A stretch of DNA of 64,000 bases from Sphyrna mokarran. Lineage: Eukaryota. The DNA is taken from assembly GCA_024679065.1 (NCBI GenBank), contig JAGIQG010000001.1:111724001-111788000 (forward strand). Direction: 5' to 3'. Below, piece by piece: positions 18,001 through 21,000 of the stretch (position 1 is the stretch's first letter; every line of letters begins with the position of its first letter). Position numbers: made by a program.

Positions 18001-21000
18001 TCTTAGTTAAAGCCAGCTATCACTCGCTGTGCACCCCATTGTCCTGCAACAGAGAAAAAAATGTGTCAGTGAAGATCATAATATGAGCTTGGGTTGTCTA
18101 TCATGGTTGAATATCTGGAAATGTCTGCAAGCTGTGAGATGTGGGGATGAGCCTTGCAAAAGTGCTAAGGTGAAGATGAGGGGAAGCTGTGAATATCAGG
18201 TATGAGAGCCTTTTGATATTATTGATAGGTGAGGAATGGAGGGATCTGGTGAACTAAGCTCGGTGTGTTGGTAGGATGTGACATTTGAGAATTCAGTCAC
18301 TGACTGGGATCACTTCGATGACAGAACTGAACTTCTTCCTGAATGCCAGATCTGAATGTCTGACTCCTGGTAGTAACTGCAACAGGTATCTCCTCCCACC
18401 ACCACCTGAGACTTTGTTTGAAGAGGCTGTTGACTTACTGTGAGCAAATAGCATCTCTCTTTCTTTGCACCTCCTTGACTCAGCCATCTTCACACTGCTG
18501 CCTCACAGATCCAGGGACTTGGGTTCGATTCCTGCTTTGGGTGACTGTCTGTGTGGAGTTTGCAGATTCTCCCCATGTCTGTATGGGTTCCCTCAGGGTG
18601 CTCTGGCTTCCTCTCACATTTCAAAGATGAGCAGTTTAGGTGGATTGGCAATGATTAATGTGCAGGGTTACGCAGATAGGGAAGGGGTGGCGGTTGGACC
18701 CATTGTAAGGTGACCTTTCAGAAGGTTAGTGCATAATTGATGGTCTGCATGGCCTCATTCTGTACTTTATGGATTCTACCAGAAAAAAAGCTGGCACAGA
18801 AATGGAAAGGCTTGGCTTGCCATATCTAATTTACTTTTGTTTTGTTATATCCAATTCAATCCAATTAAAGTCCAATTCAAAGTCTCAAAGAGTGAGACAT
18901 TCCAGATCCAAGCTGACAGGACAGGCAAGCCTGTTTTGGGCCTGATTACATGATTCAAGCTGATTGGAGTAGGCATTGCACCCCACCCCCACTGCCTCCA
19001 GTTCTTGATTTCATTTGCATCTCAGCCAAAAGGCCTCGATGCCATTTTCAAAAATTGCTTCAAATGAAGCCTCAGCATAACCTCAGAGACTTCTATCAAG
19101 TGCAGGATGCCAATACTACACTTAATCTTAGCTAAAAGGCCTTTTTTTTGGTTTATATCCAATTCAATCCAATCAAAATCCAATTCAAAATCTCAGCAGA
19201 TGAGACATTCCAGGCCCAAGCTAACAGGACAGACAAGCCTCTTCCTGTCTTGGGCTTGATCTACATGATCCAAGCTGATTGGAGCAGGTTTTGCACCTTC
19301 TCCAAAGTTTGATCTCATTTGCATCTTAGCCAAAAGGCCTCAACACCACTTTTAAAAATTGCTTTAGATGAAGCCTCAGTGTAACTTCATGACTTCAACC
19401 AAGTGCAGGATGCCAAGACTACACTTGATCTTAGCCAAAAGGCCTATGCTAAGACTTCCAGCAACTTTCATCCAAAGTGCACAATTTTTTTCAAAAGGCA
19501 CAGGCTAGTTTTATGTATTGCAGATTACATTTAATTCATGCCAGCTCTCGCAACTTTGTATTCCCTACTCACATGTGCAGCCATTCCATAGTGTACTGAG
19601 TGCTGGCTGCATTCTAGAATTGTTTAAATGAGCAGGCAATGGAAAGTTTATCTGCTGCCTGCAACAGTAGTGGAGCATGCAGGTTAACCTCATAATCCTC
19701 ACACCTATTTGTACAGCTATTAAATTTAAAATTAAACTGAGAATTGCAAGGGTTGTTTTTTTCATTCATTTATAGGATATGGGCATTGCTGGCTTGCCAG
19801 CATTTATTGCCCATCCCTAGTTACCCTTGAGAAGTTGGTGGTGAGCTAGCAATTTATCTCACTAGTTAAAATATATCCAGTGCCTCCTTTACAATCATGC
19901 ACACCTGAGTCAAACTTCTTTTAAAAAAAAATGTTTTTGCTATATAATAAATATTTTGAATAAAAATCTTGAAACATAAACACCAACTGTTTTCCTATGT
20001 CAATGCCAGGGCTTGTCTTATTGTAACATAGATTTAACAATTTGTCATAGGTTCATAGCATCCCAACTGCAAGCTCAATGTTTTCTCCTAAAGCACAGTG
20101 TTTCTTTGTTCCTGTAGGCTAATGTTTTGACAATAAATAGAATTCATGAATTACTTCTTGGCAGATAAAACAATTAACTAACATCCTCAAACAGAAAATT
20201 TAAAGGACCCATCCAACATTTTAATTACATTGCTCAATTAGACACTCAGTGTTTAATTACAGCTACGAAATATAGCTAAACTTCTAAAAGGCCAATAAAC
20301 TGTGGTTTTGCTCTGTATGTCCATAAACAGCCACACTTGGGATATGAGAGAAACAAATTTCAGCAGATGTGACAGTAACGTGTATGACTTGCAACTTATT
20401 GGGGAGTATGAATGGCACAGGAAGATCCCACTAGATGGGGGAATTATGTCACATTTCCCTACATTTAAGCCAGATCTATATTCATTCATAAATGATGCAT
20501 GTACAATGGACATTCAAGACTGCAAGTGTTGATTTAAAGAGATTGAAGAAAGTAAATGACTATTTTTAAGGTGAAGAAATGCTGATAACAGGATGCCCTA
20601 TGAAAATCACACTGTTGCCTGGAGGAGGAAGAGGAAGAGTAACAGAGGAATGCTCAGCAAGTAAGGCTGCAACCCAGGAGGATGAGACCTAAAATATTCG
20701 GTGCAGACTATCCTACACAAGCTGAATATTGATGGATGAGCAAGCCTCAAGGATTGTTCCTATCTGCAAAAGCATGAAGGGCTAAACAGGTGCCAACAAC
20801 AAAACTCCAGTCTTTTACAAATTCTCCTATGGAATTCCCCCATGTCATGGAAACTTAGAAATAAGGTCCGTTGCTTTGTCAGGTTGACCAGGAAACTGAT
20901 ATAGTTGCTTACTCAATCACCTGTTTCATGCAGACGGACTTGTCTCACTGACAGACTGTCCTTTGCAAGTGCCATTCATGATCTGTCAGAATATAAGGAT

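What the first reader, a model, noticed from the sequence alone, without database searches (positions are those of the whole stretch)
18835..19444. Tandem U2-snRNA-headed retroposon-like unit
Seen: on the minus strand each ~305-bp unit reads U2 nt 11-37/39 (including the branch-point recognition GUAGU(A)), then ~75 nt, a second U2-like motif, ~190 nt and an A-rich tail. The tail of one unit abuts the U2 head of the next. Known: U1/U2-headed SINEs (SINEU) are described from crocodilians, and Keno (Tx1) and Utopia retrotransposons target U2 near nt 37-38, which is where the homology stops here. Inference: this is a non-autonomous U2-headed SINE or satellite-like retroposon, possibly mobilised by a U2-targeting LINE and inserting at its own head. 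I do not recognise it as a named family.
Basis: partly seen in the sequence, partly recalled or inferred. Interest (0 to 1): 0.85.

Follow-up and report, generated by a model that had tools for sequence, protein, structure and literature searches.

The report
Shark U2-headed retroposon, tandem pair
Two decayed head-to-tail copies of a ~305-base non-coding mobile element that starts with a piece of the U2 spliceosomal RNA sit in what looks like a shark genome, and they resemble a class of elements so far described only from crocodilians.

Summary
On the minus strand, 19444..19142 and 19141..18835 are two head-to-tail units of about 305 nt, with 252 of 301 aligned bases identical. Each begins with a match to positions 11-37 or 11-39 of the Rfam U2 model. 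Each carries a second 17-nt copy of the start of that motif about 76 nt further on. Each ends in a 10-12-nt microrepeat and an A-rich tail, and the tail of the first unit abuts the head of the second.

A third, older partial copy lies about 8 kb away at 11038-11130 (nhmmer E 1.2e-7), and its flanks are unrelated to those of the pair. This is therefore a dispersed family, not a one-off duplication.

It is not a U2 gene (27.3 and 16.2 bits against a cut-off of 46), and it has no tRNA or convincing A/B boxes. It contains T4-T5 runs. No target-site duplication rises above chance.

The best reading is a SINEU-like, U2-headed non-autonomous retroposon in an elasmobranch. The tandem junction does not fit a simple insertion at U2 nt 38/39. 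Copy number, partner LINE and Dfam/Repbase status could not be checked. I rate it a probable new member of a known kind, of moderate interest.

The parts
19142..19445 (-). Unit A, about 304 nt: outer U2 head, spacer, inner U2-like motif, body, microrepeat tail, A8 end.
   Evidence: nhmmer 364.5 bits.
18835..19141 (-). Unit B, about 307 nt, with the same architecture. The A-rich end is interrupted (CAAAACAAAA, then GTAAA).
   Evidence: nhmmer 372.1 bits.
19418..19444 (-). Outer head of unit A. It matches Rfam U2 model positions 11-37, covering stem-loop I and the branch-point-binding GUAGU. 27 of 27 bases match the model consensus as printed.
   Evidence: alignment.
19113..19141 (-). Outer head of unit B. 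It matches U2 model positions 11-39. It has 2 differences from head A within the first 27 nt.
   Evidence: alignment.
19323..19339 (-). Inner U2-like motif of unit A. It is a 17-nt exact copy of the first 17 nt of the head (U2 positions 11-27).
   Evidence: On its own this stretch gives no U2 hit at E<=10.
19019..19035 (-). Inner U2-like motif of unit B (1 mismatch).
19153..19192 (-). Tail microrepeats of unit A: about 3 copies of a 10-12-nt unit.
   Evidence: TRF, period 12, 3.2 copies, 19157-19192.
18845..18880 (-). Tail microrepeats of unit B.
   Evidence: 2 mismatches to unit A.
19142..19149 (-). A8 run that ends unit A. It is directly followed by the first base of head B at 19141.
19397..19430 (-). 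Predicted hairpin. U2 positions about 26-37 of the head pair with an inverted complement 10 nt downstream. This is a weak feature.
   Evidence: In one search, z is -2.4 in A (4 of 200 shuffles fold as well) but only -0.5 in B (59 of 200).
11038..11152 (-). Copy C, an older partial copy. It covers unit columns 63-173 and includes the inner U2-like motif at 11066-11082. The 3' side is cut off next to another repeat. An extension towards a decayed outer head, up to about 11239, is ambiguous.
   Evidence: 73.9% over 69 nt, E 8.7e-6; E 1.2e-7, envelope 11020-11152.

Best explanation
**What it is.** This is an old, neutrally decaying head-to-tail pair of copies of a ~305-nt non-autonomous retroposon. 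Its 5' end is a fragment of U2 snRNA (about nt 11-39). It is a SINEU-like element in what looks like a shark genome.

**Architecture (shown).**
- U2 head.
- A spacer of about 76 nt.
- A second 17-nt U2-head motif.
- A body of about 130 nt.
- About 3 microrepeats of 10-12 nt.
- An A-rich end.

**Family status (shown).** There are at least two independent loci in 64 kb, so the family is dispersed.

**Mechanism (inferred).**
- An RNA copy was reverse transcribed at a nicked target by the enzyme of a LINE that recognises the 3' tail or the A-run.
- Transcription was probably not by RNA polymerase III. The unit has no tRNA-type boxes and contains internal T4-T5 runs. Read-through from an upstream promoter is more likely, as proposed for crocodilian SINEU.
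- The U2 head was acquired in one of two ways. One is a template switch of the reverse transcriptase onto U2 snRNA. The other, favoured by the head ending at nt 37-39, is co-transcription of LINE-derived sequence sitting at the Keno/Utopia site of a U2 gene.
- The inner motif would be the remnant of an earlier head, as in the recurrent 5' additions described for SINEU-1.

**Origin of the pair (inferred, not resolved).** The candidates are a second insertion into the A-rich tail of the first copy, a template jump from one RNA to a second during a single insertion, or a later local duplication.
For: **U2 head.**
- The only Rfam family with E<0.01 in 18600-19700 is U2, and both units hit it.
- The 27-mer head occurs twice against 0.00 expected.

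**Retroposon-like build.**
- Both heads start at the same U2 position (nt 11).
- A-rich ends follow a microrepeat tail.
- There is no ORF of 90 aa or more in 17918-20945.

**Dispersed family.**
- Copy C scores E 1.2e-7, while the next best hit in the window is E 0.18.
- The best E in 10 shuffled windows was 0.049.
- The flanks of C and of the pair share nothing at E<=1e-3.

**Neutral decay.**
- A and B differ by 37 transitions, 12 transversions and 6 gap runs (4 internal), K2P 0.19.

**Not a Pol III element.**
- ARAGORN finds 0 genes in 18000-20200.
- A and B boxes (consensus recalled) match only at 2 mismatches, which is the chance level by my estimate.
- Unit A has 5 T runs of 4 or more and unit B has 3.

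**Parallels in Kojima 2015 (PMC4494074; Results and Discussion read).**
- Short U2 heads.
- Repeated 5' additions of U2 sequence in SINEU-1.
- Internal oligo-T.
- Frequent tandem insertions.
- 5' ends that do not coincide with U2 nt 1.

**Head end and host.**
- The head ends at nt 37-39, and the Utopia/Keno downstream flank starts at nt 39 (PMC4640811 section 6).
- The host looks like a shark. The five best named hits of the Penelope-like ORF at 7414-9603 come from three shark species, Heptranchias perlo, Scyliorhinus torazame and Mustelus asterias, at 80-88% identity.
Against: - Only 3 copies at 2 loci were seen. Genome-wide copy number is unknown.
- No target-site duplication is detectable around the pair. 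The best flank alignment score is reached by 773 of 2000 shuffles and by 1503 of 2982 control pairs from the window.
- The U2 match is sub-threshold for Rfam (27.3 and 16.2 bits against 46), and there is no hit at gathering score.
- The spacer alone, the 3' 183 nt alone and the inner-motif stretch alone give no U2 hit at E<=10. The inner motif could therefore be an internal duplication of 17 nt rather than a second U2 capture.
- No LINE sharing the tail is in the window.
- Copy C lacks the 3' half, so no second tail or A-run is available to compare.
- Sequence likeness to the crocodilian SINEU consensus sequences was not tested. They are in figures and supplements that I could not see.
Confidence: 0.6

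Rival explanations
1. It is a short remnant of a U2-derived satellite. The ~305-nt unit would be amplified mainly by unequal exchange in arrays, like the U2 gene-derived satellite U2_sat reported from Ciona, and not by retroposition. Copy C would be a relic of another array.
For: - The units are head to tail with no spacer.
- No target-site duplication was found.
- U2-derived satellites exist (PMC4640811 section 8).
Against: - There are only two units, bounded by sequence that is unique in the window.
- TRF reports no 305-nt array.
- Each unit ends in an A-rich run exactly at the junction, which is what a retrocopy gives.
- Copy C is a single partial copy with different flanks.
Confidence: 0.15
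2. It is a non-autonomous derivative of a U2-site-specific LINE of the Keno or Utopia kind, which re-targets U2-like sequence. The outer 'heads' would be duplicated target sequence (U2 nt 11-38) and not part of the mobile RNA. An incoming head-less copy would have landed in the head of a resident copy.
For: - Both outer heads span the same interval, starting at nt 11 and ending at nt 37-39.
- That end is the Keno/Utopia site.
- Reptile Utopia makes 20-bp target duplications and one Utopia family inserts in tandem.
- The order head, body, tail, head, body, tail is what a 28-nt target duplication would give.
Against: - It needs a 28-nt duplication and a resident copy that already carried a head.
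- No U2 sequence from nt 39 onwards lies downstream of unit B, and no convincing nt 1-10 lies upstream of unit A (over 18600-19700).
- No such LINE is in the window.
Confidence: 0.12
3. It is a one-off: a single chimeric U2 retro-pseudogene that was later duplicated locally. The similarity of copy C would be coincidental or the result of an old segmental duplication.
For: - No target-site duplication was found.
- Only one tandem pair was seen.
- Chimeric snRNA retrocopies are known (Kojima 2015 Discussion).
Against: - Copy C scores E 1.2e-7 against at least 0.049 in 10 shuffled windows.
- Copy C includes the inner motif.
- Copy C has unrelated flanks.
Confidence: 0.08
4. It is a functional U2-variant or other small-RNA gene array.
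For: - The head keeps stem-loop I and the branch-point-binding bases.
- Whole-unit folds are somewhat more stable than shuffles (z -2.35 and -2.05).
Against: - The hits are below the Rfam cut-off, and nothing beyond the heads resembles U2.
- The differences between A and B, including indels of 6 and 11 nt, look unconstrained.
- 0 of 84 predicted pairs show a compensatory change.
- The local hairpins are not consistently better than shuffles.
Confidence: 0.03

Closest known systems
SINEU (SINEU-1, -2, -3) of crocodilians (Kojima 2015, PMC4494074)
   Same: - Both are short non-coding retroposons whose 5' end is a fragment of U2 (or U1) snRNA.
- Heads do not always start at snRNA nt 1.
- More than one U2-derived piece can sit in one element, as in the SINEU-1 subfamilies.
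- Both have internal oligo-T runs and no Pol III promoter.
- Both have A-rich 3' ends.
- Tandem copies are common.
   Different: - The host here looks like a shark. The paper states that no SINEU was detected outside crocodilians.
- This tail carries 10-12-nt microrepeats before the A-run.
- Sequence relatedness of body and tail to SINEU was not testable.
- No Mariner-type target and no Tx1 partner were seen here.
Keno (Tx1 clade) and Utopia, U2-gene-specific LINEs (Kojima & Jurka 2015, PMC4640811)
   Same: The U2 homology of the head stops at nt 37-39, and the paper places the insertion site just before nt 39.
   Different: - This unit has no ORF.
- It is not inside a U2 gene.
- It is not followed by U2 nt 39 onwards.
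- The tandem junction lies at nt 11 of the next head and not at nt 38/39.
U2_sat, a U2 gene-derived satellite of Ciona (mentioned in PMC4640811 section 8)
   Same: It is tandem DNA derived from U2.
   Different: - Only two units are present here, and each has a retrocopy-like A-rich end.
- I saw only one sentence about U2_sat and no sequence.
Chimeric snRNA retrocopies made by template switch (U6-L1 type; cited in Kojima 2015 Discussion)
   Same: An snRNA 5' part is joined to unrelated 3' sequence that ends in an A-run.
   Different: Those are independent single events. Here the same composite recurs at two loci with the same internal junctions.

Membership tests
SINEU (snRNA-headed SINE-like retroposons) | The 5' region is derived from U1 or U2 snRNA. 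| tested here: met
   The Rfam U2 model aligns positions 11-37 and 11-39 to the first bases of both units. The head 27-mer occurs twice against 0.00 expected.
SINEU (snRNA-headed SINE-like retroposons) | Short (under 500 bp) and non-coding. | tested here: met
   The units are about 304 and 307 nt. No ORF of 90 aa or more lies between 17918 and 20945.
SINEU (snRNA-headed SINE-like retroposons) | 3' poly-A tail. | tested here: inconclusive
   Unit A ends in A8. Unit B ends in an interrupted A-rich run. Copy C has no 3' end.
SINEU (snRNA-headed SINE-like retroposons) | A multi-copy retroposition unit: many dispersed copies of the same structure, with occasional target-site duplications. | tested here: inconclusive
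   3 copies at 2 loci in 64 kb. No target-site duplication above chance. The genome was not available.
SINEU (snRNA-headed SINE-like retroposons) | Sequence relatedness to the SINEU-1, -2 or -3 consensus sequences. | not testable with these tools
   The consensus sequences are in Repbase, figures and supplements, none of which could be seen.
SINEU (snRNA-headed SINE-like retroposons) | Shares target preference or head with Tx1-type LINEs. | not testable with these tools
   Pfam was run on 20 of the 65 ORFs of 90 aa or more, and 4 had hits. These were a Penelope-like RT with GIY-YIG and one other RT. That other RT ends in a different 3' sequence.
U2 spliceosomal RNA gene (Rfam RF00004) | Score at or above the gathering cut-off of 46 bits, with Sm site and stem-loops III and IV. 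| tested here: not met
   The scores are 27.3 and 16.2 bits. There are 0 matches at gathering score. The regions beyond the heads give no U2 hit.
Insertion product of a Keno- or Utopia-type U2-specific LINE | The upstream U2 fragment ends at about nt 38. | tested here: met
   The heads end at nt 37 (A) and nt 39 (B). The site is as stated.
Insertion product of a Keno- or Utopia-type U2-specific LINE | U2 sequence from nt 39 onwards follows the 3' end of the insert. | tested here: not met
   The tail of A is followed by nt 11 of head B. The tail of B is followed by sequence with no U2 hit.
tRNA-derived SINE (SINE2) | A tRNA-like head with A and B boxes. | tested here: not met
   ARAGORN finds 0 genes in 18000-20200. 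The boxes (consensus recalled from memory) match only at 2 mismatches.
Satellite DNA | A long head-to-tail array of the unit. | tested here: not met
   There are two units only. TRF reports no 305-nt period. The flanks are unique in the window. Arrays elsewhere in the genome were not testable.

The most novel reading that the evidence does not exclude
Elasmobranchs would carry their own family of snRNA-headed retroposons, the first outside crocodilians. The family would have been born when a truncated U2-site-specific LINE (Keno or Utopia type) sitting at nt 38/39 of a U2 gene was co-transcribed from the U2 promoter. The composite would keep a residual affinity for U2-like sequence, so that it stacks U2 heads (outer and inner motif) and builds head-to-tail arrays. 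This would give a concrete origin for the puzzling promoter-less SINEU class.
Probability: 0.15. Interest if true: 0.6.

Novelty: new member of a known kind. Interest (0 to 1): 0.4.

Why it matters
snRNA-headed retroposons are the least understood SINE class. They have no known promoter, and the describing paper reports them from crocodilians only.

A second, independent lineage in cartilaginous fish would show that capture of U2 heads is recurrent. A head that stops at the Keno/Utopia target site offers a testable origin, namely co-transcription from a U2 gene. That in turn would test how such elements are transcribed.

If the family is already in Dfam or Repbase, or is low-copy, the finding is an ordinary repeat annotation.

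Tried and rejected
- **Target-site duplication.** The candidate flank match around the pair is no better than chance.
- **More U2 beyond the heads.** The Rfam global alignment suggested an Sm-site-like run and a stem-loop-IV-like hairpin. The spacer alone, the 3' 183 nt alone and the inner-motif stretch alone gave no U2 hit at E<=10, so I dropped the idea that the unit is an internally deleted whole U2 (SINEU-3-like).
- **Internal duplication of the unit.** In unit A the sequences after the two motifs are no more alike than shuffles (score 15; 1154 of 2000 shuffles reach it). The same test on unit B was mis-cut by my script and is not usable.
- **Conserved RNA structure.** 0 of 84 predicted pairs have compensatory changes, with only two sequences to compare. 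The head hairpin is better than shuffles in A but not in B.
- **Partner LINE in the window.** The RT at 37149-38382 (-) ends near 36540 in an unrelated 3' sequence. Short tail-like matches at 45388-45408 and 58571-58590 are chance.
- **Further copies.** A profile of A, B and C found nothing more. The next best hit was E 0.39.
- **A sixth 17-mer match.** The match at 10050-10066 has 3 mismatches and nothing unit-like around it in the nhmmer searches, so I treat it as chance.
- **Literature on shark SINEU.** Searches found none in their listings. One search gave 0 papers. One search gave 23 papers with the word, of which 21 were listed and none was on cartilaginous fish by title.
- **Scan left unused.** The one scan of genome contigs was not used, because that collection holds only bacteria and archaea.
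Full report
**What is there.**

Read on the minus strand, window 19444..18835 holds two head-to-tail units, A (19444(5)..19142) and B (19141..18835).
- MAFFT aligns them over 325 columns. On that alignment 252 of 301 aligned bases are identical, with 37 transitions, 12 transversions and a K2P distance of 0.19. There are 24 gap columns in 6 runs, 4 of them internal, including indels of 11 and 6 nt.
- blastn gives 80.5% over 318 columns, E 1.6e-78.
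- TRF does not call a 305-nt period. It reports only a 12-nt microrepeat at 19157-19192 in the tail.

**The U2 head.**

At Rfam gathering scores the whole window has 0 matches. With E-value reporting on 18600-19700 there are 6 matches, and the only one below E 0.01 is U2.
- U2 (RF00004) scores 27.3 bits at E 0.0028 for unit A, and a second U2 match scores 16.2 bits at E 1.3 for unit B. The cut-off is 46.
- The alignments place the first bases of the units on model positions 11-37 (A) and 11-39 (B). This covers stem-loop I and the branch-point-binding bases.
- The head 27-mer occurs twice in the window at up to 3 mismatches, against 0.00 expected.
- Its first 17 nt occur 6 times at up to 3 mismatches, against 0.19 expected. 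These are the two outer heads, the two inner motifs (19323-19339 and 19019-19035), one in copy C (11066-11082), and one probable chance match at 10050-10066.
- Nothing beyond the heads is recognisably U2. The 76-nt spacer, the 3' 183 nt of unit B and the 61-nt stretch around the inner motif give no U2 match at E<=10 when searched alone.

The inner motif is therefore either an older, decayed U2 head or a 17-nt internal duplication of the outer head. In unit A the sequences that follow the two motifs are no more alike than shuffles (1154 of 2000 shuffles reach the score). The run on unit B was mis-cut and is not usable.

**The rest of the unit.**
- Each unit ends in a 36-nt block of about three 10-12-nt microrepeats (19153-19188 and 18845-18880), followed by an A-rich run.
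- The A8 of unit A is followed directly by the first base of head B.
- There is no ORF of 90 aa or more between 17918 and 20945.
- There is no tRNA in 18000-20200.
- A and B boxes (consensus recalled from memory) match only at 2 mismatches, which I estimate to be the chance level.
- T4-T5 runs lie inside the unit, 5 in A and 3 in B.
- Predicted folds are only modestly better than shuffles (z -2.35 and -2.05).
- 0 of 84 consensus pairs show compensatory change.
- A hairpin between the head and an inverted complement 10 nt downstream beats shuffles in A (4 of 200 fold as well) but not in B (59 of 200).

**Is it a family?**

A profile of A and B finds a third match at 11038-11130 on the minus strand.
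- It scores 25.6 bits at E 1.2e-7 and covers unit columns 63-173. The next best hit in the window is E 0.18.
- The best E in 10 shuffled windows was 0.049.
- blastn sees the core of it at 73.9% over 69 nt.
- Copy C carries the inner motif. Its 3' side stops next to another repeat, and a possible decayed outer head upstream is ambiguous.
- Its flanks and those of the pair share nothing at E<=1e-3.
- A profile of all three copies finds nothing more.

So there are 3 copies at 2 loci in 64 kb.

**Insertion signatures.**
- No target-site duplication around the pair exceeds chance. 773 of 2000 shuffles and 1503 of 2982 control pairs from the window reach the observed score.
- The upstream 315 nt is unique in the window.
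- About 55 nt downstream a common SINE-like repeat begins.

**Host and neighbours.**
- The 729-aa ORF at 7414-9603 has RVT_1 and a GIY-YIG match below Pfam's cut-off, so it is Penelope-like.
- Its five best named relatives come from three shark species, Heptranchias perlo, Scyliorhinus torazame and Mustelus asterias, at 80-88% identity. I take the window for elasmobranch and not for human.
- Another RT fragment, at 37149-38382 (-), ends near 36540 in a 3' sequence unlike the unit's tail.
- No Tx1-type LINE and no LINE with this tail is in the window.

**Comparison with what is known.**

Kojima 2015 (PMC4494074; Results and Discussion read) describes SINEU.
- They are short retroposons with U1 or U2 heads.
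- Their 5' ends need not be snRNA nt 1.
- SINEU-1 shows repeated 5' additions of U2 pieces.
- They have internal oligo-T, no recognisable promoter and poly-A tails.
- They show frequent tandem insertions and probable mobilisation by Tx1 LINEs.
- The paper states that none was detected outside crocodilians.

Kojima and Jurka 2015 (PMC4640811; sections 5, 6 and 8 read) add the following.
- U2 sequence downstream of Utopia starts at nt 39, and Keno has the same 3' flank.
- Reptile Utopia makes 20-bp target duplications.
- A U2-derived satellite exists in Ciona.

The unit here matches the SINEU architecture feature by feature, as far as could be tested. Its head ends at the Keno/Utopia site.

Whole-word searches for SINEU found 23 papers, of which 21 were listed, none on cartilaginous fish by title. 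Three other searches found no report of a U2-headed SINE in sharks in their listings. Supplementary files and figures that hold the SINEU sequences could not be seen, so sequence relatedness is open.

**How it most likely works.**

Shown:
- A composite of U2 nt 11-39 plus unrelated sequence recurs at two loci and decays neutrally.

Inferred:
- It is a non-autonomous retroposon copied by a LINE enzyme through its 3' tail.
- It is transcribed from outside, not by Pol III.
- Its head comes either from a template switch onto U2 snRNA or from co-transcription with a U2 gene that carried LINE sequence at nt 38/39. I favour the second slightly because of where the head ends.

The tandem pair is most simply explained in one of three ways: a second insertion into the A-rich tail of the first copy, a template jump during one insertion, or a later duplication. 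One pair cannot tell these apart.

Tail A abuts nt 11 of an intact head B, and no U2 sequence follows unit B. It would work only with a 28-nt target duplication and a head-less incoming copy, and I keep that as a minor rival.

**Verdict.**

This is probably a new member of a known kind, a SINEU-like element in a shark. Interest is moderate, pending a genome-wide census and a Dfam/Repbase check.

Noticed in passing
window 6648-9914: A Penelope-like element. The ORF at 7414-9603 (729 aa) has RVT_1 and a GIY-YIG match below Pfam's cut-off. It is framed by inverted arms that are 100% complementary (6896-7428 with 9135-9667, and 6648-6893 with 9669-9914). Perfect arms of 533 and 246 nt suggest either a very recent inverted Penelope arrangement or an assembly artefact.
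   Followed up: partly
window 43300-47100: A cluster of direct and inverted repeats related to the ends of the Penelope-like element (families D1, D3, D8, D11 and D15; pairs I3, I5, I6 and I7). These are probably further, older copies.
   Followed up: no
window 37149-38382 (-), 3' end near 36540: A broken LINE reverse transcriptase (RVT_1 in two ORF pieces). Its 3' end is unlike the tail of the U2-headed unit.
   Followed up: partly
window 18486-18780, 32353-32632, 57446-57749 and others: Several copies of a common SINE-like repeat (families D4, D7, D13, D16, D19 and D20). One lies about 55 nt downstream of unit B.
   Followed up: no
window 60488-60643: A run of 156 N. It was left as it is.
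   Followed up: no
window 10864-11024: A repeat directly 3' of copy C. It is 68.5% alike to 51126-51287 on the other strand and probably truncated copy C.
   Followed up: no
window 10050-10066 (-): A 17-mer with 3 mismatches to the U2-head motif and nothing unit-like around it. It is probably chance.
   Followed up: partly
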